Source: a virus. Taken from it: a stretch of 64,000 nucleotides of DNA. The notes below the pieces were generated by a model that saw only the letters and a program-made list of their open reading frames with translations, was not told the DNA's origin and did no database searches. Within the stretch, counting starts at the first letter, position 1. The number at the start of each line of letters is the position of its first letter. The DNA is taken from the IMG/VR virus record IMGVR_UViG_3300032050_000072, positions 19,618 through 83,617 of that record; one strand, given 5' to 3'. This document shows, piece by piece, positions 2,140 to 30,939 of this stretch. Position numbers and translations under genes: made by a program.

Positions 2140-2214
2140 GCATCCACCCAGGGAATCGAACCCCGCCACTCGCTTTTGGAGAGCAAGTCGCCAGCCTTGG
2201 TACATTGGCGGATA
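2140..2214 (-). tRNA. tRNA-Trp(CCA), atypical D-arm
   Basis: Acceptor TATCCGC/GTGGATG, anticodon loop CTCCAAA, T-loop GGTTCGATTCC. Confidence 0.7.
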
Positions 2215-2227
2215 TAGATCGCTGATC

Positions 2228-2335
2228 GGCGTTTGCGCTCGTACGTTTTCCAACGGCGGAATCCTTGTTTCGCGGGCGGCATTTCGCTCTAGCCTATAGC
2301 CTTGGCGACGTTCCGCTCGCACCCGGTTTGACGCC
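2228..2335 (-). ncRNA. Candidate structured RNA B between tRNA-Thr and tRNA-Trp
   Basis: Nested pairings GGCGT/ACGCC, TGCG/CGCA, ACGT/ACGT and CCAAGGC/GCCGTTGG form an irregular rod. Confidence 0.4.
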
Positions 2336-2369
2336 CGGTTTTCCGTTTATTCACCAATCAACGATCAAA

Positions 2370-2441
2370 AGCCAGCGGAGGGACTTGAACCCCCGACCCG
2401 CTGTTTACAAAACAGCCGCTCTGCCACTGAGCTACGCGGGC
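2370..2441 (-). tRNA. tRNA-Thr(UGU)
   Basis: GCCCGCGTAGCTCAGTGGCAGAGC...GCTGT-TTTGTAA-ACAGC...GGTTCAAGTCC; canonical cloverleaf. Confidence 0.93.
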
Positions 2442-2450
2442 AATTTCAGG

Positions 2451-2540
2451 CGGAAGCGGTAGGACTCGAACCCACAAGCCGATCTTTCGATTCGGCCACC
2501 TGTTTTCAGGACAGGCCCCTCATCCAGCCGGATCACTTCC
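2451..2540 (-). tRNA. tRNA-Ser(UGA), long variable arm
   Basis: Anticodon arm CCTGT-CCTGAAA-ACAGG, long variable hairpin, G73, T-loop GGTTCGAGTCC. Confidence 0.85.
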
Positions 2541-2547
2541 GTATCAG

Positions 2548-2618
2548 TGGACCGTCGCAGAATCGAACTGCGATCTCCCGGTTGCAGGCCGGGCGTCTTC
2601 CCGTTTGACCAACAGCCC
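2548..2618 (-). tRNA. tRNA-Ala(UGC)
   Basis: Acceptor GGGCTGT/ACGGTCC with G3:U70 and A73; anticodon arm CCCGG-CCTGCAA-CCGGG. Confidence 0.8.
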
Positions 2619-2626
2619 ATTATCAG

Positions 2627-2698
2627 AGTCGCGGGTGGGACTCGAACCCACGGCATCTAGTTTGGAAGACTAGCGTTCTGCCGCTGAACTACCACGAC
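2627..2698 (-). tRNA. tRNA-Gly(UCC)
   Basis: CTAGT-CTTCCAA-ACTAG anticodon arm, U73, T-loop GGTTCGAGTCC. Confidence 0.92.
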
Positions 2699-2706
2699 TT
2701 GTGCGC

Positions 2707-2840
2707 TGCACGGCGATCACATACGCGATCTTTAAGCGGATCAGCCCTAGTGGCAGGTCGACAACTGACTGAGGCTTGAGAATCCTTGTCGCCAGCGAGC
2801 AAGCTCGCGGACGCTGCGGCTAGTGCCGCGTCACCGTGCA
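2707..2840 (-). ncRNA. Candidate structured RNA C between tRNA(CAU) and tRNA-Gly
   Basis: A 10-bp closing stem TGCACGGTGA/TCGCCGTGCA encloses hairpins GCGGC-ACTA-GCCGC, GCGAGC/GCTCGC, CGACAA/TTGTCG and GATC/GATC. Confidence 0.55.
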
Positions 2841-2842
2841 AG

Positions 2843-2916
2843 TGTCAGGGGTGGGACTTGAACCCACGATCTCCAGCTTATGAGGCTGGCGAGATAGCCG
2901 ACTTCTCTACCCTGGC
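2843..2916 (-). tRNA. tRNA with CAU anticodon (Met or Ile2)
   Basis: CCAGC-CTCATAA-GCTGG, T-loop GGTTCAAGTCC; C2:A71 mismatch in the acceptor stem. Confidence 0.85.
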
Positions 2917-9047: not shown

Positions 9048-10565
9048 CTATTTGAGCAAGTCGCTCATTTTCGGCAGGTCGCCAGCGCCAAGCGAAAGAA
9101 CGCCCGGCTCGCGCGTTTCACGGCTCTCAAGATAGGCCCCTGCGTAAGCCACGACATCGACCTGATCGTCATGCGATCCGCGCGGGAATTGCAGCAGTTC
9201 AGCCTCGAAGTCCGACAGCCACGCCGCACCCGATCGGTGGAATACCTTGTGCGATGCGTACCGCGTCAGAACCGCCTCGGATCGCGTGATCTTATCTCTG
9301 GACGCTTTGAGCGCCCGGAACGGCGTGCCGCGAACCTCGCCCGCCTGGATCAAGCCGATACCGGCACCCGTGTCTTCGATCGCCTGGAATGACAACTGCG
9401 GATAGAGCCGCCGCTGGGCAATCATCATCGCATACTGGTCGGGAATCGCCACCCGCTCGCGCCGCATATCGTAGACGAGCAGGTCGTGGTCGGGTGTTCG
9501 TAGAAACGTGCCGACGACCGTGAAGTCGTTTTCCTTGCCGGTCTTCTGGGCCGTGTCGCAGGTCTGGAACCAAGTGCATCGGCTGGCTTCGTATCGCCTT
9601 GAACCGGCATCATCATCGACCACGACGAACTCGACGCCATCGACAAACTCGATTGTGAAGTAGCGGAAGTCCTCCAGCCGGTAGATCGAGCCGGTCAGCG
9701 GGTTTGGTCGCTGCTGCAATTGGCCTGGCGCGTCGAAGCTGAGCCTGATCTTCGACTGATCGACCTTGGCCCTCGGATAAGCCTGCTCCCAGAGTAGTTC
9801 GCCATCGGTCGTGCGCGGATCGGTCCATCCGAGCGATGTCGGCTCCATGCGGTTCGGCTCGAACTCCATAGGCAGAATGATCTTCTCGTAGCCGCCCTGC
9901 CGAATAACGTGACCAGCCAGATCGTCTTCGTGGAGCCGCTGCATGACGATCAACCGCCGCACGCCACGGATTTCACCACGCATCGAGATCGTGCCATCCC
10001 ACCACTCGCGAACTCGCTGCCGCTTGAGCGGCGACCGTGAATCTTCGGCCTTGATCGGATCGTCGCAGATCACAAAGTCGGGATGCTCGCCCGTACCGCG
10101 ACCGCCAATGCTCGTCGCCAATCGCCAGCCGCCATCCGTGTTCTGAAAGCGGGTTTCCTTGTTCTGGTTTCTCAACAGCCGCCCGAACCGTTCACAGTAC
10201 CAGTCGCTCTCGATCACGCTGCGGCAGTTATTCGACGCCTTGGTCGACAAGTCCTGAGCATAGCTCGCCACCAGAAACCTTGCAGACGGCCACCACGTCC
10301 AGACCCAGGCCGGAAACAGAATCGAGCAGAGTAGCGTCTTGGTTGTTCCTGGCGGCTGGTTGATGAGCAGGTTGCCAATCTTGCCGCGAGCCATCGCCTC
10401 CAGGTGATCGCAGATCGCCTCGATGTGCCAATTGTCCATGTAGGTCGAATCTTCGACCTGATTCCAGGCCAACTGCACGAAGTCATAGAAACGACCGCAG
10501 CGACGCCGCGACTCGGCAATGACATCACCACGACCCGGCACAAGCGAGCTACGCATTTTCGCCAC
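9048..10565 (-). CDS. terL: Terminase large subunit
   Basis: NWHIEAIC, Walker A NQPPGTTKT, GTGEHPDFVICDDP, IVMQRLHEDDL, nuclease CDTA and FPRGSHDDQVD. Confidence 0.93.
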   Translation of the reverse strand: MAKMRSSLVPGRGDVIAESRRRCGRFYDFVQLAWNQVEDSTYMDNWHIEAICDHLEAMARGKIGNLLINQPPGTTKTLLCSILFPAWVWTWWPSARFLVASYAQDLSTKASNNCRSVIESDWYCERFGRLLRNQNKETRFQNTDGGWRLATSIGGRGTGEHPDFVICDDPIKAEDSRSPLKRQRVREWWDGTISMRGEIRGVRRLIVMQRLHEDDLAGHVIRQGGYEKIILPMEFEPNRMEPTSLGWTDPRTTDGELLWEQAYPRAKVDQSKIRLSFDAPGQLQQRPNPLTGSIYRLEDFRYFTIEFVDGVEFVVVDDDAGSRRYEASRCTWFQTCDTAQKTGKENDFTVVGTFLRTPDHDLLVYDMRRERVAIPDQYAMMIAQRRLYPQLSFQAIEDTGAGIGLIQAGEVRGTPFRALKASRDKITRSEAVLTRYASHKVFHRSGAAWLSDFEAELLQFPRGSHDDQVDVVAYAGAYLESRETREPGVLSLGAGDLPKMSDLLK

Positions 10566-11061
10566 CAGCCGTAGGAATCGCTTGCCCGCCGTACTCGCGC
10601 GAGAGCTTGTCGAGCAATGCTAGCTCTTGATTGCTCAGCTTGCTCAAGTCGATCTGTGCCGGTGGCGGCTCGGGCGGCTTCTGCGTGACCTCGACCTTGC
10701 TCTTGCGGCCCCAGCGATCCGGGTGCTTGCGTTCGAGATAGGTCATGCAAGCCTGCCAGCTTTCCTCCATGTGCTGATTGAGCTTGGCGACGACTCGAAC
10801 CTCGGCCTGAGCCTCGGCGTCTTTAACGGCTTGATGAAACTTTCCGTAGACGCTATTCGGCTTTTGCTCGCCGCGCGTCAGCCAGCGGCTTAGCGTTTCA
10901 GCCGGAATCCCGGCGAACTTCGCCGCCACGCAGAGGTAGTTCCCGGCGAGAATAGCCGAGACAATCCTGCTCTGAATCGCTGCTGTGAGTTTCGTCGGCG
11001 CGCCGCCCGGCCCGCCTTTGTAGTTTGCCATAATGCCCTCTTTGATTGTGCTGCCACGCAC
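10549..11061 (-). CDS. Probable terminase small subunit (HTH)
   Basis: GAPTKLT..IVSAILAGNY..AAKFAGI..TLSRW, WQACMTYLERKHPDRWGR; overlaps the terL start. Confidence 0.75.
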   Translation of the reverse strand: MRGSTIKEGIMANYKGGPGGAPTKLTAAIQSRIVSAILAGNYLCVAAKFAGIPAETLSRWLTRGEQKPNSVYGKFHQAVKDAEAQAEVRVVAKLNQHMEESWQACMTYLERKHPDRWGRKSKVEVTQKPPEPPPAQIDLSKLSNQELALLDKLSREYGGQAIPTAGGENA

Positions 11062-11076
11062 GAATACAACAGCTAT

Positions 11077-11748
11077 CTAGCCTTCGATCAGCCAGCCAGC
11101 GAAATCGCCAAACCTGAAAACCTCAACGGCGTGCTCGCCGAGAACCTTCGGGTCAATTGGCCTCTGGACGCCAATGAGTGAAATCTCTTTTGCGAGAACC
11201 TCATTGGCTGGAACACCTGATGCGATCTTGCCAGCCAGCGTAAGCCTAGAAAGAACCAGCGACGGATAGCCGCCAGTTGGGTTGCAGCGATCAAATACCA
11301 CGATCACGCCGCCCTTTCGGCAGCGGCATCGCAGCTTGTCCATGAGATCGCGACGCTTGTCGACCGGCACGAACATCAGCGACAGGAATAAGATCGCGAC
11401 ATCAAACGACTGATAATCAAACTTCTCGGCCTGGGCACAAACAAACTCGCCTGGGCCCTCGTATTTAGCCCGCATCGCCTCCGAGTTGTCTACGCCAACC
11501 AGCTTAGCGCCGCGGTCTTCGAGAGTGCCAGCGATCGCCTTGCCGATATTGCCGGTCGAGCAACCGATGTCGTAGACCAAGCCGCCGTCAGGGATATAGT
11601 GCCTTGCCACATGCGACACGACTCCGGTCGTCAAGTCATACCACGGCAACTGCTCGCGAACATGCCTGTCGAACCCGCTAGCGATATCTGCTGTCTTGAA
11701 TGTCCAGTTCCTTGGAATATCGAACCCGACTGCCCCTGCGGTTTCCAT
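11077..11748 (-). CDS. cmoA: CmoA-like SAM-dependent enzyme (candidate carboxy-SAM synthase)
   Basis: NWTF..FDRHVREQLPWYD, YDIGCSTG, GVDNSEAM, LSLMFVP, GGVIVVFDR parallel E. coli CmoA motifs. Start reassigned to ATG 11748 (GGAGG SD). Confidence 0.75.
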   Translation of the reverse strand: METAGAVGFDIPRNWTFKTADIASGFDRHVREQLPWYDLTTGVVSHVARHYIPDGGLVYDIGCSTGNIGKAIAGTLEDRGAKLVGVDNSEAMRAKYEGPGEFVCAQAEKFDYQSFDVAILFLSLMFVPVDKRRDLMDKLRCRCRKGGVIVVFDRCNPTGGYPSLVLSRLTLAGKIASGVPANEVLAKEISLIGVQRPIDPKVLGEHAVEVFRFGDFAGWLIEG

Positions 11749-11749
11749 G

Positions 11750-13117
11750 TCAGTCCTCCGGTAAGTAGCCAAACCTCTTGCGAAGCTCGGAGTTATAGAA
11801 TTTCGTCGGTGAAGCAATTCGCCTTGCGATCTCGTCGGCGACGCCACTGGCTCCTTGAAATGTGTCTTTTGGTCGATTGATGATCCACTTCGGCAAGATC
11901 GACTCTGCCGCCAGCTTGAGCAGTTTCTTGCCAGGAGGCGACTCCGACTTGGTTAATTGCACAGCCGACTCAACAAGCCTCTGCTCCATGAACGGCAGCC
12001 TGCACTCGACTCCGCCAGCCATGAACGCCTTATTGCACCTGACGAAGTTTCCGCGAGACATTTTGGCTAACTGCTCAAGCCTAAGCCGGATCACGCCGTC
12101 GTCGGTTTCGCGGCTGGCTTGGATGCAGAAGTTTCCGTATCCGCCAAACAACTCATCGGCGGCCTCGCCTGACAGGCAAGCCTTAAACCCCTCTGCTGCA
12201 ATCCTTTTCGCAAGCGGAACGCACAGCACGGCGATCTCTATCTGAGCCTTGGATGGAATCTCGATCGACTCCATCGCTTCGGCAATCCCGCGATCAGTTA
12301 TTCCGACAGGAACTTCAAACAGCTTTACCCCAAGGTCACTACACAAGCGTCTAGCACACAGCAAGTCATTAGAACGCTGATCGAAGCTCGCCGTAAAGGC
12401 TACGACCTCGCGACCAGTTTCAACAGCAAGGCCAAGGATTATGCTGCTATCAAGGCCGCCTGAAATTAAGCAGCAGACGGGAGCGTCGGCGCTAAGTCTC
12501 TTTGCAACACCGTCGCGAAGACGACCAAGCACATCGCCATGAGTACACCGTTCCACGCTGGGCATTGAGTACCACTTGCGCCACTCGCCTGTCGTTAAAT
12601 TGAAAGCGAATCCTGCTGGAACAGATATCGCCTTGACGCCAGCCGGAAACGCCTTTCTTTCCGATGCCCACAGATACCCACCGTTATGCTTTGCCACATA
12701 AACTGGAACCTTGCCGAACGAATCTCGCACTAGCCAGCTATCGCCTTTAGATGGAGTCCACGCGAACGCAAACATGCCGTCGAGCATCGGCAAGCAATCC
12801 ATGCCGTGCCTACCGAGCATTGCCGCCAAGACTTCCGTGTCCCCTGTTGTCGCAAACTTCTCACCAGATTCGGCTAGCATCAGCTTTAGCTCGCGGTGAT
12901 TCCAGATTTCGCCATTGAACGTCAGCGTCGACCCATTTCGCACGAACGGCTGAGACGAAAGCTCGGATAGATCAACCAGCGACAGCCGGACATGGCCATG
13001 CACGAAACCGCCATGATTCCTGACGCCGATCCCATCTGGTCCGCGATGCTTGATTTTCTCAAGCATTAAATGCACAGACGACTCAAGCCCGTTCGTCGCG
13101 CCAGCAATTCCGCACAC
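11750..13117 (-). CDS. asnB: Asparagine synthetase B-like glutamine amidotransferase
   Basis: GTG start giving N-terminal CGIAG (Ntn nucleophile), HRGPD, HVRLSLVD, FNGEIWN, LISGGLDSS PP-loop, SGEAADELFGGY, ECRLPF. Confidence 0.9.
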   Translation of the reverse strand: MCGIAGATNGLESSVHLMLEKIKHRGPDGIGVRNHGGFVHGHVRLSLVDLSELSSQPFVRNGSTLTFNGEIWNHRELKLMLAESGEKFATTGDTEVLAAMLGRHGMDCLPMLDGMFAFAWTPSKGDSWLVRDSFGKVPVYVAKHNGGYLWASERKAFPAGVKAISVPAGFAFNLTTGEWRKWYSMPSVERCTHGDVLGRLRDGVAKRLSADAPVCCLISGGLDSSIILGLAVETGREVVAFTASFDQRSNDLLCARRLCSDLGVKLFEVPVGITDRGIAEAMESIEIPSKAQIEIAVLCVPLAKRIAAEGFKACLSGEAADELFGGYGNFCIQASRETDDGVIRLRLEQLAKMSRGNFVRCNKAFMAGGVECRLPFMEQRLVESAVQLTKSESPPGKKLLKLAAESILPKWIINRPKDTFQGASGVADEIARRIASPTKFYNSELRKRFGYLPED

Positions 13118-13121
13118 AAAC

Positions 13122-14444
13122 CTACCCCTGTTTGATCTTCGACAAAATCTGATCTCGAATCGCCGCTGCCACATGCGACATCATTACCGGAGGCACGGCA
13201 CGCCCGAGCCGCTCCCATTGCTGGGCGTAGCTACCAGCTAGAATGAAGTCATCTGGAAATCCGCAGATGCGACGAAGCTCTGCAATCGAGAACTTGCGAC
13301 GCTCGGTTGGATGTGTCACGCCAGCAATTGAACCAGCGCCGCCAGCGGCAGTAATTGTTGGGCATGGTCCGTCTTGATCTGGCCGAACAAGCTGAAAGTA
13401 TTTTTCAGACTGACCTCCAGGGCCGATATTGTCCCACTCCTTGCCGATCGCGAAGCGACTGATATCAGCTTCCTTCTCAATGAAAAGCTGAGGCTTCGTG
13501 GTGACGCATGGCGACGGACGATCAGTGACTTCGCCGTGGCTAAAGCTAGGGTCGGGCGATCCGGTGTCGTGAACCGCCTTCAACTTAAATCCAGCGGTGG
13601 CCTCAACGACAGTTTGATGCTTGCCTTTTCCATTCATGCCGTGAGCCATAACGGTTGGCGAAGGATCGTCGGCGCTGTGCTGACTGACACCAAAGCCGGA
13701 CCTCGCACCAGTGTCGGGGTTGATGCCGGACTCGACGCTATTGATCCACGGAAGCGCGTCGCGAATCGAATAGCGATATGGCAACGGCTTCGGGTGAACC
13801 GGGTCAAGTCCGAGGTCGTTTCTAACGCCGACGAAGATCGTCCGCTGCCTCGCCTGCGGAACCCCGAGCCACTGTGCGTCAAGCACCTTGCACGACACGC
13901 GATAGCCGCACGACTTGAGCTTGGCGAGGATTTCTAGAAAGTACCCCTTGGCCGTGCCTTTGACCAATCCAGATACATTTTCAGCCACAAACGTCTTTGG
14001 CTGCAAGCCTTCGAGTAGCCGGGCGAACTCAAAGAACAGGTCGTCGGTTCGCTGCGCCTTGTCGCTATACTTCTTGACCTTGCCCCAGCCCTTTTCTCGC
14101 TTGCCAGCCGTCGAGAAAGACGCGCATGGCGGCGAACCGTCGAGCAGATCAAGTTCGCCTTGCCGGAGCCCTGTGGCATCAAGGATTTCACTGGCCTTGA
14201 CGAGCCTTATATCACGACCATCAAGAATCGTCGTTGCCGACTTATTGGCGGCATAGCTTTCACGCGCTGAGTCGATAAACTCAGAAGCCCAGACCACCTT
14301 GAACCCAGCCATGCGGTAGCCCAGTGAAGACCCGCCGCAGCCAGAGAATGTAGAAGCAACCTTAAAGCCATTCCAAGGCAGGCCAGCGATTTCAGCCATC
14401 GAAGGCACACGGTACGGTGGCTTGTTATCACTTGCCATTTTCAT
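13122..14444 (-). CDS. C5-cytosine DNA methyltransferase-family protein with motif X Asn->Arg (candidate carboxymethyltransferase)
   Basis: FSGCGG (I), GSPPCASFS (IV), ENVSGL (VI), PQARQR (VIII), RICGFPDDF (IX), LGRAVPP (X). Confidence 0.9.
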   Translation of the reverse strand: MKMASDNKPPYRVPSMAEIAGLPWNGFKVASTFSGCGGSSLGYRMAGFKVVWASEFIDSARESYAANKSATTILDGRDIRLVKASEILDATGLRQGELDLLDGSPPCASFSTAGKREKGWGKVKKYSDKAQRTDDLFFEFARLLEGLQPKTFVAENVSGLVKGTAKGYFLEILAKLKSCGYRVSCKVLDAQWLGVPQARQRTIFVGVRNDLGLDPVHPKPLPYRYSIRDALPWINSVESGINPDTGARSGFGVSQHSADDPSPTVMAHGMNGKGKHQTVVEATAGFKLKAVHDTGSPDPSFSHGEVTDRPSPCVTTKPQLFIEKEADISRFAIGKEWDNIGPGGQSEKYFQLVRPDQDGPCPTITAAGGAGSIAGVTHPTERRKFSIAELRRICGFPDDFILAGSYAQQWERLGRAVPPVMMSHVAAAIRDQILSKIKQG

Positions 14445-14468: not shown

Positions 14469-14999
14469 TCAACTAGACTTTCCACTCCACGAGTAGCCGC
14501 ACTTCGGGCAGCGATGGTCTGTGTTGATCGACTCGTCGACCTCTGGAAAATCAACAGGCGACTCGCTGAGTGGCTCCATTGCTGGAATGGCACCGGCCTT
14601 CTCGGCCAAGCTCGTCACGAGTTGCTGCAAACTCTCGTCACTAAACTGGACACTATCGAGCAACTGGGTCAAAGCACCGGCGTCGGAATCGGCCATCGCG
14701 CCAATTGGGTCCATCGTGGCCAGCAGTTTGTTGGCCTCAAATTCGTCGACATCGAGAATCAAAACAGGCACAAGCTCGTCGGCCCTCGACATGACATCGG
14801 CACGCAGGTGTCCGTCAATAATTTCAAGACGACCATCAATCTCACGGGCAATGACGGCGGAAGCCATTCCGATTTCGCCAATCGCGGCAACCAATGCTTC
14901 GCGCTGCCTGATTCCGTGCCTGCGCCAGTTCTTGTCATTTTCGACAAGATCACAAGCTGGAACCATCCTGAGTTCTTTGACTCGATTTTTAATCGACAT
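14469..14999 (-). CDS. ParB/Srx N-terminal-like protein with C-terminal CPKC zinc ribbon
   Basis: NDKNWRRH, EIIDGHLR, HRCPKCGYSW. Confidence 0.75.
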   Translation of the reverse strand: MSIKNRVKELRMVPACDLVENDKNWRRHGIRQREALVAAIGEIGMASAVIAREIDGRLEIIDGHLRADVMSRADELVPVLILDVDEFEANKLLATMDPIGAMADSDAGALTQLLDSVQFSDESLQQLVTSLAEKAGAIPAMEPLSESPVDFPEVDESINTDHRCPKCGYSWSGKSS

Positions 15000-18061: not shown

Positions 18062-18088
18062 GTGTCCGCAACTTGTTGCGTGGTTCAG

Positions 18089-18161
18089 CGACCCGAGCAG
18101 GATTCGGACCTGCGACCTGCGGTTTAGGAAACCGCCGCTCTATCCGCTGAGCTACCGAGTC
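18089..18161 (-). tRNA. tRNA-Arg(CCU)
   Basis: GACTCGGTAGCTCAGCGGATAGAGC, GCGGT-TTCCTAA-ACCGC, variant T-loop GTCCGAAT. Confidence 0.88.
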
Positions 18162-30196: not shown

Positions 30197-30939
30197 GCGG
30201 CAAACTCCTCTCGCATCTTCTGGCAATAGAGCGGGCTCTTGTCGATCAGCACGCAATGCCGACCAATTCTGCGGCATACCCGGCCTGTGGTTCCGGTGCC
30301 AGCAAACGGATCGACGACCAGATCGCCGGGCTGCGTGCAACTCAGAACGCACCGCTCGACCAAGCCCTCGTTGAGTTGGGTCTTGTGCCAGCTTCGGCGT
30401 TGCTTGCTGTTGCCTGTCACGCGCGGGAAGTCAAAGACATCGCCCGGCACCCGGCCACGCGGATCAGCCCGCTTGTCGCCGTTGAGTTGCCGCCAGCTTG
30501 GCACGCGAATGTTGTCGGCCAGCGTCTTGATCTTTGGGTCGCGGATTCGCCAGAGCGGTCGATGGTTGTTGCCGAAGTCGTGGTGATTGTGCTGACCAAA
30601 GGTGAACGTCTGCACCATCGGCGTGACCCATTCTCGGTCGTACATTTTGAAAAGACTGCTCGCAAACCCGAGCACCCATCGCGAGTTGAACGACAGCCAG
30701 AGCGTTTCGCATCGCACCGAAGCCACACCGACGAACTCGATCAACCAGTCGAGATACTCGCCATCGCTCATATTGTCTTCGTGGTTGTCGTACTCCAGGC
30801 CGATGTTGTCCGGTGGATCGGCAAAGATGCACTTGATCGGCGGCAGGCCCGCTGCTCTACGTCCGCTCGCCACGGAGCCCACAAGCTCGATCGCATCGCC
30901 ACAAAGCACGGTGGGCGTTAAGGTCGCGGTGATGGTCAT
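30193..30939 (-). CDS. N6-adenine/N4-cytosine DNA methyltransferase (beta class) with DPPD motif
   Basis: FADPPDNIG before VVDPFAGTGTTG. Confidence 0.85.
   Translation of the reverse strand: MTITATLTPTVLCGDAIELVGSVASGRRAAGLPPIKCIFADPPDNIGLEYDNHEDNMSDGEYLDWLIEFVGVASVRCETLWLSFNSRWVLGFASSLFKMYDREWVTPMVQTFTFGQHNHHDFGNNHRPLWRIRDPKIKTLADNIRVPSWRQLNGDKRADPRGRVPGDVFDFPRVTGNSKQRRSWHKTQLNEGLVERCVLSCTQPGDLVVDPFAGTGTTGRVCRRIGRHCVLIDKSPLYCQKMREEFAA

What the first reader, a model, noticed from the sequence alone, without database searches (positions are those of the whole stretch)
11077..14444. Three-gene operon predicting a hypermodified base: C5-cytosine carboxymethylation followed by amidation
Seen: three tightly coupled genes (gaps of 4 and 1 nt) encoding a C5-MTase homolog, an AsnB-like enzyme (intact Cys1 glutaminase plus SGGLDS adenylation loop) and a CmoA-like protein. 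Established: CmoA makes carboxy-SAM from SAM and prephenate; AsnB enzymes adenylate a -CH2-COO- group and amidate it with glutamine-derived ammonia; C5-MTases can transfer a carboxymethyl group from Cx-SAM when the motif X Asn becomes basic. Inference: CmoA-like makes Cx-SAM, the MTase homolog makes 5-carboxymethyl-C in DNA, and AsnB-like converts it to 5-carbamoylmethyl-C. The carboxymethyl arm mimics the Asp side chain, so the chemistry fits. From memory, phage carboxymethyl-C has been reported with an amino-acid amide ligase (needs checking); a glutamine-amidotransferase route would give a different product. The likely role is anti-restriction or a packaging mark.
Basis: partly seen in the sequence, partly recalled or inferred. 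Interest (0 to 1): 0.93.

Follow-up and report, generated by a model that had tools for sequence, protein, structure and literature searches.

The report
Phage cytosine carboxymethylation-amidation gene cassette
This uncultured phage carries the recently published gene set that puts a carboxymethyl group on DNA cytosines, in the glutamine-using version that should cap the group as a simple amide; that final base has been predicted in print but never measured, so this is a clean new example and not a discovery.

Summary
Three tightly packed minus-strand genes, with gaps of 4 nt and 1 nt, encode a C5-MTase homologue, an AsnB-like amidotransferase and a CmoA-like protein.

The MTase is a CmoX. 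Its best solved relative is SpCmoX (8YF3, E 1.4e-68, against 1.3e-23 for the next). It has the SPPC motif, and Arg415 sits where SpCmoX has Arg350 and ordinary C5-MTases have Asn.

The AsnB-like protein keeps every glutaminase and ATP-site residue I checked. It is 36% identical (E 3e-79) to A0A7T0Q3R0 of Streptomyces phage TurkishDelight. That protein represents the ligase cluster for which Yang et al. (Nat Commun 2025, PMC12783734) already proposed glutamine-derived ammonia, but could not assay.

The cassette really has four genes, because a ParB-like gene (14469-14999) travels with it. In IMG/VR relatives CmoA follows in 40 of 40 loci and an Arg-type CmoX precedes in 38 of 40; the other two are cut by contig ends. 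None of 72 ordinary AsnB homologues in cellular genomes has these neighbours.

One caveat: the CmoA-like protein has Glu at E. coli Arg199, but so does the experimentally verified SpCmoA.

Verdict: a new member of a known kind. The predicted product, 5-carbamoylmethylcytosine, is still unmeasured. This scan has already met the same glutamine variant on other DNA (e1-3546082, e1-5344285).

The parts
14469..14999 (-). ParB-like protein (176 aa) with a conserved C-terminal tail ...P.DF.E.DE.I.T[DE]H.CP.CGY.WSG. It is the fourth, previously uncounted gene of the cassette.
   Evidence: phrog_620 ParB-like E 6.6e-14. Pfam ParB_N is weak, E 0.0017. Found upstream of CmoX in 43 of 46 relatives. The tail residues P148, F151, T160, C164, P165, C167, G168 and S172 are invariant in 21 of 21 aligned proteins. 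The tail is seen in 43 of 44 loci that hold a CmoX, and also in Moraxella phage Mcat8 and TurkishDelight gp122.
13122..14444 (-). CmoX-type DNA cytosine C5-carboxymethyltransferase homologue (440 aa). Key residues: FSGCGG 33-38, SPPC 104-107 (Cys107 nucleophile), ENV 155-157, and GRAVPP 414-419 with Arg415 in motif X.
   Evidence: PF00145 E 1.8e-55. Best PDB hit is 8YF3 (SpCmoX) at E 1.4e-68, against 1.3e-23 for HaeIII. Arg415 aligns with SpCmoX R350 and with the Asn of HaeIII and DNMT1. Identity is 44% to SpCmoX and 59% to TurkishDelight gp123.
11750..13117 (-). Glutamine-type CmoY: an AsnB-like amidotransferase/PP-loop ligase (455 aa). It has an N-terminal Ntn glutaminase domain (Cys2) and a C-terminal synthetase domain (SGGLDS 219-224), with KAQIE 290-294 where AsnB has VTTIR.
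   Evidence: Pfam Asn_synthase, GATase_6 and GATase_7. 1CT9 (E. coli AsnB) E 1.8e-41. Residue map. 36% identity, E 3e-79, to A0A7T0Q3R0 = TurkishDelight gp124. phrog_16728 E 2.6e-118.
11077..11748 (-). CmoA-like protein (223 aa), the predicted carboxy-SAM synthase.
   Evidence: phrog_4752 E 4.6e-44, the same and only PHROG hit of E. coli CmoA, SpCmoA, Mcat8 and TurkishDelight gp125. Its top three PDB sequence hits are CmoA/YecO. Foldseek top hits are 4GEK, 1IM8 and 4IWN at TM 0.78-0.81. Against: TIGR00740 scores only 52.9 bits against a cut-off of 193.3, and Glu188 stands at the Arg199 position.
9048..11061 (-). Terminase small (10549-11061) and large (9048-10565) subunit genes. These are context only and not part of the cassette.
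   Evidence: phrog_4102 E 3.4e-27 and phrog_38 E 3.3e-82. Not conserved next to the cassette: TerS in 0 of 46 relatives, TerL in 3 of 46.

Best explanation
This is a four-gene, mobile phage DNA-hypermodification cassette of the published CmoA/CmoX/CmoY kind, in its glutamine-dependent form. The proposed mechanism runs as follows.

1. The CmoA-like enzyme converts SAM and host prephenate into carboxy-SAM. This step is inferred.
2. The CmoX homologue attacks cytosine C6 with Cys107 and transfers the carboxymethyl group to C5. Arg415 holds the donor carboxylate. The result is 5-carboxymethylcytosine in duplex DNA. This is inferred by close homology to the crystallised and assayed SpCmoX.
3. The AsnB-like enzyme adenylates that carboxylate at its PP-loop site and amidates it with ammonia, which is released from glutamine by the Cys2 Ntn domain and channelled to the synthetase site. 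The product is 5-carbamoylmethylcytosine. This is inferred from AsnB chemistry and gene context. It is also proposed in PMC12783734 but has never been assayed.
4. The ParB-like protein with its conserved CP.CGY tail accompanies CmoX. Its role is unknown.

The likely purpose is protection of phage DNA from host restriction.
For: **CmoX.**
- 8YF3 is by far the best solved relative (E 1.4e-68, against 1.3e-23).
- SPPC and Arg415 align to SpCmoX SPPC and R350, while HaeIII and DNMT1 show GNAVP at that place.
- The paper defines candidate CmoX by exactly these two features. It shows that R350 contacts the Cx-SAM carboxylate, and that the enzyme uses Cx-SAM and not SAM.

**Ligase.**
- The window protein and 39 of 39 family members keep C1, H29, R49, N74, G75, E76 and D98. 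They also keep SGGLDS, S346, G347, E348, D351, R387 and K449 (E. coli AsnB numbering).
- All 39 have KAQ[IV]E where AsnB has VTTIR.
- A0A7T0Q3R0 is TurkishDelight gp124, and the window protein matches it at 36% identity, E 3e-79.
- TurkishDelight has the same gene order: ParB, ParB, MTase, GATase-domain protein, methyltransferase.

**CmoA.** It shares phrog_4752 with E. coli CmoA (1.4e-101) and the assayed SpCmoA (7.4e-71). Y37, D60, G62 and F126 match the SAM-site residues Y39, D62, G64 and F137.

**Linkage in IMG/VR.** Among 40 loci whose CmoY is at least 51% identical:
- CmoA follows in 40 of 40.
- CmoX precedes in 38 of 40; the other two are cut by contig ends.
- All 38 CmoX carry GR[AS]VPP.

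**Linkage in GTDB genome contigs.**
- 7 of 79 AsnB-homologue loci carry KAQxE.
- 6 of the 6 with upstream room have an Arg-type CmoX.
- 7 of 7 have a CmoA-like gene.
- 0 of the other 72 have either gene.

**Prephenate.** The phage has no chorismate mutase, so prephenate must come from the host.
Against: **No biochemistry.** There is none for this protein or for any glutamine-type CmoY. The paper's authors could not obtain soluble enzyme.

**Weak link to the assayed ligase.** SpCmoY is only a distant relative: 26% identity over 129 aa, E 4e-5. It sits in a different PHROG, 26038 against 16728. So its DNA-directed activity transfers only weakly to this enzyme.

**The CmoA-like protein is the least secure part.**
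- It fails the NCBIfam CmoA cut-off (52.9 against 193.3 bits).
- It has Glu188 where E. coli CmoA has Arg199, the only side chain reported to contact the Cx-SAM carboxylate (PMC4482062 and PMC3663124 passages; alignments). The assayed SpCmoA also has Glu there, so this does not disqualify it.
- Its predicted fold matches the CysG/BelI carboxylate O-methyltransferases (TM 0.75-0.81) about as well as CmoA (0.78-0.81).

**Other gaps.**
- The DNA target motif is unknown.
- One close relative (L044) has Val in place of the glutaminase Asn74.
Confidence: 0.72

Rival explanations
1. The cassette makes 5-carboxymethylcytosine as described, but the AsnB-like enzyme does not end at the plain amide. It may couple another amine. 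Or the amide may be an intermediate that this enzyme or another phage enzyme processes further.
For: Ligases associated with CmoX are diverse, and the paper expects several different amines. E. coli AsnB D384 is Asn357 here. AsnB K376 is variable in the family: Q, L, A or S. The VTTIR to KAQIE change shows that the acceptor pocket has been rebuilt.
Against: All seven glutaminase residues checked are invariant in 39 of 39 members. That would be pointless if ammonia were not the nucleophile. No further conserved gene travels with the cassette: TerS and 10 other flanking ORFs of the window occur in 0 of 46 relatives, and TerL in only 3.
Confidence: 0.1
2. The CmoA-like protein is not a Cx-SAM synthase. 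It would be an ordinary methyltransferase, for example a carboxylate O-methyltransferase like CysG/BelI, or it would make a different SAM derivative. The host's own CmoA would then supply Cx-SAM.
For: Glu stands at the Arg199 position. The protein scores below the TIGR00740 cut-off. Foldseek scores for CysG/BelI nearly tie with those for CmoA. E. coli's own CmoA was enough to feed SpCmoX in vivo.
Against: The assayed SpCmoA has the same Glu and was more active than E. coli CmoA. The His-His pair targeted by the CysG H121/H122 mutant entries aligns with Met125-Phe126 here, and Phe126 matches CmoA's invariant F137. The window protein's only PHROG hit at E up to 0.001 is the family that also holds E. 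coli CmoA and SpCmoA. A methyl-esterifying enzyme would compete with the amide ligase for the same carboxylate.
Confidence: 0.08
3. The order of steps is reversed. The AsnB-like enzyme amidates free Cx-SAM to a carbamoylmethyl-SAM, and the MTase homologue then transfers the finished group to DNA.
For: Nothing direct. The end product would be the same, and the sequence data cannot fix the order.
Against: The motif X Arg, which binds the donor carboxylate in the SpCmoX crystal, is kept in 38 of 38 neighbouring CmoX. It is also kept in the ligase-free cassette of Moraxella phage Mcat8. SpCmoY acts on 5cxmC already in DNA.
Confidence: 0.05
4. The three genes are unrelated neighbours: a plain 5mC methyltransferase, an auxiliary metabolic asparagine synthetase, and a generic methyltransferase.
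For: The AsnB-like protein scores close to the TIGR01536 cut-off (261.2 against 267.1 bits). It keeps the AsnB ATP-site and glutaminase-site residues.
Against: The linkage is strict: 40 of 40 and 38 of 40 in IMG/VR, and 0 of 72 for ordinary AsnB homologues. Arg replaces the motif X Asn. AsnB's VTTIR segment is replaced by KAQIE in all 39 members. The protein is below both AsnB equivalog cut-offs.
Confidence: 0.03

Closest known systems
CmoA-CmoX-CmoY system of Synechococcus phage S-B43 (Yang et al., Nat Commun 2025;17:281, PMC12783734; SpCmoX structure 8YF3)
   Same: It has a Cx-SAM synthase homologue, a C5-MTase homologue with SPPC and the motif X Arg, and an ATP-dependent PP-loop amide ligase, all adjacent to each other. 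Window CmoX is 44% identical to SpCmoX, and 8YF3 is its best solved relative.
   Different: SpCmoY is 271 aa, has no glutaminase domain and ligates glycine. The window ligase is 455 aa with an intact Ntn glutaminase domain. It is only distantly related to SpCmoY (26% over 129 aa) and sits in a different PHROG. The gene order differs: A-Y-X in S-B43, ParB-X-Y-A here. No ParB-annotated gene lies in the roughly 5 kb on either side of the S-B43 cmo genes. The window CmoX has a longer variable region, so its DNA target (GC in S-B43) need not be the same.
Streptomyces phage TurkishDelight gp121-125, whose gp124 is UniProt A0A7T0Q3R0, the named representative of the paper's second-largest ligase cluster
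   Same: The gene order is the same: ParB-like, CmoX, glutamine-type ligase, CmoA-like. Identities are 36% for the ligase (E 3e-79), 59% for CmoX and 28% for CmoA. The ligase has the same KAQ.E signature, and the ParB tail is the same.
   Different: It comes from a different phage lineage with an actinobacterial host. TurkishDelight has two ParB-like genes. Neither enzyme has been assayed; the paper reports that enzymes of this cluster were insoluble.
Escherichia coli asparagine synthetase B (1CT9)
   Same: The two-domain architecture is the same. The glutaminase residues and the PP-loop/AMP-site residues are conserved. The chemistry is the same: a -CH2-COO- group is adenylated and then amidated with glutamine-derived ammonia.
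   Different: The window protein is about 100 residues shorter (455 against 554 aa). It is below both NCBIfam AsnB cut-offs. The VTTIR segment, residues 320-324 in Cys1 numbering, reads KAQIE. From memory only, that segment contains residues implicated in beta-aspartyl-AMP formation. D384 is Asn here. The presumed substrate is a modified base in DNA, not free aspartate.
Engineered M.MpeI N374K carboxymethyltransferase (cited in PMC12783734 as the earlier 'unnatural' 5cxmC maker; original paper not read here)
   Same: A basic residue at the motif X Asn position lets a C5-MTase use Cx-SAM.
   Different: It is engineered Lys against natural Arg. It has CG specificity and no follow-on ligase.

Membership tests
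CmoX (DNA cytosine C5-carboxymethyltransferase, PMC12783734) | SPPC catalytic motif (S95-C98 of SpCmoX) | tested here: met
   SPPC at 104-107, aligned to SpCmoX SPPC.
CmoX (DNA cytosine C5-carboxymethyltransferase, PMC12783734) | Arg at the position of SpCmoX R350, which is Asn304 in M.HhaI motif X | tested here: met
   Arg415 in LGRAVPP aligns with VGRMVPP of 8YF3. HaeIII and DNMT1 show GNAVP at the same place. The Arg is invariant in 24 of 24 aligned relatives and in 38 of 38 neighbouring CmoX.
CmoX (DNA cytosine C5-carboxymethyltransferase, PMC12783734) | Closer to SpCmoX than to ordinary C5-MTases | tested here: met
   8YF3 scores E 1.4e-68 (235 bits). The next hit, HaeIII, scores 1.3e-23 (86.8 bits).
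CmoX (DNA cytosine C5-carboxymethyltransferase, PMC12783734) | Uses Cx-SAM and not SAM; product is 5cxmC | not testable with these tools
   Needs an enzyme assay or LC-MS.
CmoA (carboxy-SAM synthase) | Scores over the NCBIfam equivalog cut-off (TIGR00740 / NF011995) | tested here: not met
   52.9 bits against 193.3, and 33.5 against 285. CmoA is still the best-scoring family.
CmoA (carboxy-SAM synthase) | Arg199 salt bridge to the Cx-SAM carboxylate (PMC3663124, PMC4482062) | tested here: not met
   Glu188 aligns with Arg199. The column reads E in 39, A in 1 and a gap in 1 of 41 family members. The assayed SpCmoA also has Glu there, so the feature does not hold for phage CmoAs. The neighbouring Lys (E. 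coli K198) is kept in 40 of the 41 family members (one gap) and in SpCmoA, Mcat8 and TurkishDelight.
CmoA (carboxy-SAM synthase) | Same sequence family as the assayed CmoAs, with SAM-site residues kept | tested here: met
   phrog_4752 is the only PHROG hit of the window protein (E up to 0.001). It is also the only one, at E up to 1e-5, for E. coli CmoA, SpCmoA, Mcat8 and TurkishDelight gp125. Y37, D60, G62 and F126 correspond to Y39, D62, G64 and F137.
CmoA (carboxy-SAM synthase) | CmoA fold | tested here: inconclusive
   The model has pLDDT 85.6. Foldseek ranks 4GEK, 1IM8 and 4IWN first at TM 0.78-0.81, but the CysG/BelI O-methyltransferases reach 0.75-0.81.
Glutamine-type CmoY (ligase cluster of A0A7T0Q3R0, PMC12783734) | Similarity to A0A7T0Q3R0 at the level of the paper's network (threshold 1e-56, about 30% identity) | tested here: met
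   A0A7T0Q3R0 is TurkishDelight gp124. BLASTP gives 36% identity over the full length, E 3e-79. This is a pairwise E-value, so it is not strictly the same scale as the paper's.
Glutamine-type CmoY (ligase cluster of A0A7T0Q3R0, PMC12783734) | Intact glutamine-hydrolysing Ntn domain plus PP-loop synthetase domain | tested here: met
   C2, H24, R44, N68-G69-E70 and D93 are present, as are SGGLDS 219-224, E318, D321, R360 and K417.
Glutamine-type CmoY (ligase cluster of A0A7T0Q3R0, PMC12783734) | Encoded next to CmoX and CmoA | tested here: met
   Gaps of 4 nt and 1 nt. Linkage in 38 of 40 and 40 of 40 IMG/VR relatives.
Glutamine-type CmoY (ligase cluster of A0A7T0Q3R0, PMC12783734) | Amidates 5cxmC in DNA | not testable with these tools
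   Never assayed for any member.
Asparagine synthetase B (true AsnB) | Scores over the equivalog cut-offs and keeps the aspartate-side residues | tested here: not met
   TIGR01536 scores 261.2 against 267.1, and NF006949 scores 242 against 499. VTTIR 320-324 reads KAQIE, and D384 is N, in 39 of 39. The role of those AsnB residues is recalled, not taken from a call.

The most novel reading that the evidence does not exclude
The phage DNA carries 5-carbamoylmethylcytosine, a natural DNA base that nobody has yet measured. It would be made by the first glutamine-dependent amidotransferase known to act on a base inside duplex DNA. The ParB-like protein, with its invariant CP.CGY.WSG tail, would be an obligatory fourth component that brings the transferase to DNA. 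The glutamine-type ligase would also be a separate recruitment from AsnB, independent of the glycine ligase SpCmoY.
Probability: 0.6. Interest if true: 0.5.

Novelty: new member of a known kind. Interest (0 to 1): 0.3.

Why it matters
The pathway was published in December 2025, and that paper already flags the glutamine-type ligase cluster. So this window adds an example, not a concept.

Its practical value is as a reagent lead. The paper's authors could not get a soluble enzyme from this cluster. The window enzyme and its roughly 40 IMG/VR relatives are only 36% identical to the representative of that cluster. They offer fresh candidates for showing the predicted base, 5-carbamoylmethylcytosine.

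Two smaller points may be new relative to the main text and are worth a test:
- The ParB-like partner carries a sharply conserved C-terminal tail wherever a CmoX of this lineage occurs.
- The acceptor-site segment VTTIR of AsnB is replaced by K..xE in both ligase types.

The paper's supplements could not be seen, so either point may already be recorded there.

Tried and rejected
**Asparagine synthetase as an auxiliary metabolic gene.** Rejected on three grounds:
- the strict linkage to CmoX and CmoA;
- none of 72 ordinary AsnB homologues has these neighbours;
- the acceptor segment is changed.

**Packaging mark.** Rejected. The terminase genes do not travel with the cassette.

**CysG/BelI-type O-methyltransferase reading of the CmoA-like protein.**
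- I considered it because Foldseek nearly ties the two families.
- I judged it unlikely because the His-His pair of CysG aligns to Met-Phe here.
- My search of PMC11408123 for the CysG residue names returned 0 occurrences.
- So the role of those histidines rests only on the PDB entry titles.

**Fold as a discriminator for CmoA.** Inconclusive.

**Phage-encoded prephenate supply.** No chorismate mutase (PF01817) in the 83.6-kb genome.

**Direct evidence of modification from sequencing data.**
- All 17 runs that hold the stretch are kept as assembled contigs, none as raw reads. Base-calling signatures could therefore not be examined, and I did not use read laying.
- The runs are labelled fungus metagenome (2019, possibly the source) and freshwater metagenome.
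- I laid none of them, so I draw no habitat conclusion from the small-share rows.

**DNA target motif.** Not attempted; no tool here can give it.

**IMG/VR loci L046-L049** (25-39% identity). They have no CmoX, CmoA or KAQxE and are a different kind of AsnB homologue.

**Literature.**
- 'carbamoylmethylcytosine' and 'acetamidocytosine' gave 0 occurrences among the 30 papers listed.
- CmoX and CmoY in this sense appear only in PMC12783734 (30 of 188 hits listed).
Its Supplementary Fig. 8 (ligase active-site residues) and Supplementary Table 1 may already contain the KAQxE or ParB-tail observations.

**What I read of each paper.**
- PMC12783734: outline, abstract, all of Results and Discussion, and search passages.
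- PMC10491745, PMC4482062 and PMC3663124: search passages only.
- PMC11408123 and PMC7261163: search listing only.
- The AsnB mutagenesis work, the original CmoA paper (Kim et al. 2013) and the M.MpeI N374K paper are recalled or known through citations in the above. I did not read them.

Full report
**What is there**

The window is bases 19618-83617 of an 83,617-bp IMG/VR virus record that CheckV rates 100% complete. Every long ORF lies on the minus strand.

At the finding's coordinates three genes are packed head to tail:
- a C5-cytosine methyltransferase homologue, 13122-14444, 440 aa;
- an asparagine-synthetase-like gene, 11750-13117, 455 aa;
- a small class I methyltransferase, 11077-11748, 223 aa.

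Four bases lie between the first stop and the GTG start of the second gene. One base lies between the second stop and the ATG of the third, which has GGAGGA six bases upstream.

The GTG start is the functional one. It puts Cys directly after the initiator, and 38 of 40 close relatives begin [M/V]-C-G at that point. Of the other two, L044 reads V-C-G-M and L045 is cut by the contig end.

Pfam assigns DNA_methylase (E 1.8e-55) to the first gene. It assigns Asn_synthase plus GATase_6/7 (1.6e-40, 8.6e-29, 1.1e-27) to the second, and only generic methyltransferase domains to the third.

Downstream come terminase small and large subunit genes. Upstream, 24 nt away, is a ParB-like gene.

**The system is in print**

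A search for carboxymethylcytosine and phage led to Yang et al., Nat Commun 2025 (PMC12783734). I read its Results and Discussion.

In Synechococcus phage S-B43 the paper shows three steps:
- a phage CmoA makes carboxy-SAM;
- a C5-MTase homologue, CmoX, makes 5-carboxymethylcytosine at GC sites;
- an asparagine-synthetase-like ligase, CmoY, attaches glycine.

In the CmoX crystal structure (8YF3), Arg350 replaces the motif X Asn and contacts the donor carboxylate.

The authors mined IMG/VR v4, UniProtKB and MGnify. They collected 5,615 candidate CmoX, defined by SPPC plus that Arg. On the same contigs they found 4,257 CmoA, 2,251 ligases and 1,660 ParBc proteins.

[quoted passage not shown] They add that no soluble enzyme could be obtained.

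It has not been demonstrated.

**The methyltransferase is a CmoX**

Against all PDB sequences the best hit is 8YF3 at E 1.4e-68. The next is HaeIII at 1.3e-23.

In that alignment the window's SPPC (104-107) lies on SpCmoX SPPC. LGRAVPP lies on VGRMVPP, so Arg415 corresponds to Arg350. HaeIII and DNMT1 show GNAVP in the same column (positions).

Identity is 44% to SpCmoX, 59% to TurkishDelight gp123 and 52% to the Mcat8 homologue. Both published criteria are met.

**The ligase is the glutamine type**

I aligned the window protein with E. coli AsnB and 38 IMG/VR relatives. In all 39 family members, with numbering from the mature Cys1 of E. coli AsnB:
- The glutaminase residues are kept: C1, H29, R49, N74, G75, E76, D98.
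- The PP-loop SGGLDS is kept, along with S346, G347, E348, D351, R387 and K449.
- The segment V320-T-T-I-R324 reads K-A-Q-[IV]-E.
- D384 is Asn.

TurkishDelight has KAQVE at the same segment, and the glycine ligase SpCmoY has KTHFE. From memory, not from a call, that AsnB segment holds residues implicated in forming beta-aspartyl-AMP. The change fits a different carboxylate substrate.

The protein falls just under the TIGR01536 cut-off (261.2 against 267.1 bits) and far under NF006949 (242 against 499).

An exact look-up shows that A0A7T0Q3R0 is gp124 of Streptomyces phage TurkishDelight. The window protein matches it at 36% identity over the full length, E 3e-79. TurkishDelight has the same order of genes: ParB, ParB, MTase, GATase-domain protein, methyltransferase.

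The assayed SpCmoY, by contrast, is 271 aa and aligns only with the window protein's C-terminal synthetase domain, so it has no glutaminase domain. It matches the window protein only weakly, at 26% over 129 aa, E 4e-5. It also belongs to another PHROG: 26038, against 16728 for the window protein, TurkishDelight gp124 and E. coli AsnB.

Two consequences follow. The experimental result for SpCmoY transfers only loosely to this enzyme. And the two ligase types may have been recruited separately.

**The CmoA-like protein is the weakest link**

CmoA is its best NCBIfam family, but at 52.9 bits against a cut-off of 193.3. Its top three PDB sequence hits are CmoA/YecO, at E 1e-9 to 1.3e-8.

E. coli CmoA Arg199 is reported as the only side chain that contacts the Cx-SAM carboxylate (passages of PMC4482062 and PMC3663124). 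It aligns with Glu188 here. In 41 family members the column reads Glu in 39, Ala in 1 and a gap in 1.

This would be a serious objection, except that SpCmoA was assayed, was faster than E. coli CmoA, and also has Glu in that column. The adjacent Lys (E. coli K198) is invariant.

phrog_4752 is the only PHROG hit of the window protein (4.6e-44). At E up to 1e-5 it is also the only hit of E. coli CmoA (1.4e-101), SpCmoA (7.4e-71), Mcat8 (1.2e-58) and TurkishDelight gp125 (3.8e-48).

An AlphaFold model built on 24 sequences reaches mean pLDDT 85.6. Foldseek ranks CmoA entries first (TM 0.78-0.81), but the CysG/BelI carboxylate O-methyltransferases reach 0.75-0.81. The fold therefore does not discriminate.

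The His-His pair that the CysG mutant entries target aligns with Met125-Phe126 of the window protein. Phe126 matches CmoA's invariant F137. I give the non-CmoA reading about 8%.

**Linkage, with a control**

A scan of IMG/VR with the ligase returned 44 loci. Forty have a ligase at least 51% identical, one of them a 99% fragment of the same phage. Among these 40:
- a CmoA-like gene follows in 40 of 40;
- a CmoX precedes in 38 of 40, the other two (L015, L045) beginning at or inside the ligase gene;
- a ParB-like gene is found in 37 of 40.

All 38 CmoX carry GR[AS]VPP. SPPC is present in 37 of 38, and the remaining one is truncated. The four distant loci (25-39% identity) have none of these genes.

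In GTDB genome contigs, a profile scan returned 79 loci. Seven carry KAQxE. They come from MAGs labelled Gammaproteobacteria, Gemmataceae (two) and Methylobacteriaceae, and from Nonomuraea, Streptomyces and Streptosporangium genomes. Of these seven:
- 6 of the 6 with upstream room have an Arg-type CmoX;
- all seven have a CmoA-like gene, six by tblastn and L054 by a family HMM at 2.7e-51.

None of the other 72 AsnB homologues has a CmoX, CmoA or ParB match within 4 kb. One caveat applies: KAQxE was one of the two scanning patterns, so the seven were partly selected by it.

**The unit has four genes and is mobile**

In 46 relatives the window's ligase, CmoA, CmoX and ParB-like proteins find matches in 46, 45, 44 and 43 loci. 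TerS and ten other flanking ORFs find none, and TerL finds three. The cassette therefore moves between phage backbones. Its position next to the terminase genes here is incidental.

The ParB-like protein is only about 30% identical across most relatives. Yet its last 30 residues, P.DF.E.DE.I.T[DE]H.CP.CGY.WSG, are nearly invariant:
- P148, F151, T160, C164, P165, C167, G168 and S172 are identical in 21 of 21 aligned proteins.
- The tail is seen in 43 of the 44 loci that hold a CmoX.
- It is also present in TurkishDelight gp122 and in the ligase-free cassette of Moraxella phage Mcat8.

So the tail goes with CmoX, not with the ligase.

**Rest of the genome**

- The CmoX gene is the only PF00145 match.
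- There is one N6/N4 methyltransferase elsewhere.
- There is no chorismate mutase, so prephenate must come from the host.
- Runs that hold the stretch are labelled fungus metagenome (possibly the source) and freshwater metagenome. All are kept as contigs, so they say nothing about modification.

**Verdict**

The system and the glutamine inference are both published.

This scan has also already met the same variant on other DNA (notes e1-3546082 and e1-5344285). Those are unchecked notes that I did not rely on.

It is a new member of a known kind. What remains open is experimental: whether the final base really is 5-carbamoylmethylcytosine, which DNA motif is hit, and what the ParB-like partner does.

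Noticed in passing
window 14469-14560 (C-terminal about 30 residues of the ParB-like protein); also L001:2137-2730 and L003:3445-3945: The ParB-like partner ends in an acidic stretch followed by CP.CGY.WSG. This tail is far better conserved than its ParB domain. It occurs with Arg-type CmoX in proteobacterial-type phages, in contigs of actinobacterial genomes, in TurkishDelight and in the ligase-free Mcat8 cassette. It has a single CxxC, so it could be half of a zinc site or a docking peptide.
   Followed up: partly
window 13400-13760 (CmoX residues about 230-350) and the CmoX genes of L006-L057: The variable (target-recognition) region of CmoX differs in length and sequence among otherwise close relatives. 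The open frames run from 339 to 481 aa, and many tblastn matches stop at residue 231. This suggests swapped DNA specificities within one cassette type.
   Followed up: no
window about 30217-30837, minus strand (G000:C1:49834-50454): A second, ordinary DNA methyltransferase of the N6/N4 family (PF01555, E 1.2e-30) lies elsewhere in the phage genome.
   Followed up: no
window 2140-2916 and 18088-18161, minus strand: The phage carries seven tRNA genes. Six form an array (Trp, Thr, Ser, Ala, Gly, Met), and a lone tRNA-Arg(CCT) lies about 3 kb upstream of the cassette.
   Followed up: no
L044:4778-6259 (IMG/VR relative): This ligase is 51% identical to the window's. It keeps Cys1 but reads VGE instead of the NGE of the glutaminase site. 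It may be a member that has lost, or is losing, glutamine use.
   Followed up: no
L031:1187-2320, L012:3952-5010 and other relatives: In several relatives the ParB/CmoX and CmoX/CmoY reading frames overlap by a few bases, which fits translational coupling of all four genes.
   Followed up: no
L003:3445-5645 (Moraxella phage Mcat8, KR093632.1): A cultured prophage-type phage of a human respiratory bacterium carries ParB-like, Arg-type CmoX and CmoA-like genes, all annotated as hypothetical, directly upstream of its terminase and with no ligase. It is predicted to stop at 5-carboxymethylcytosine.
   Followed up: partly
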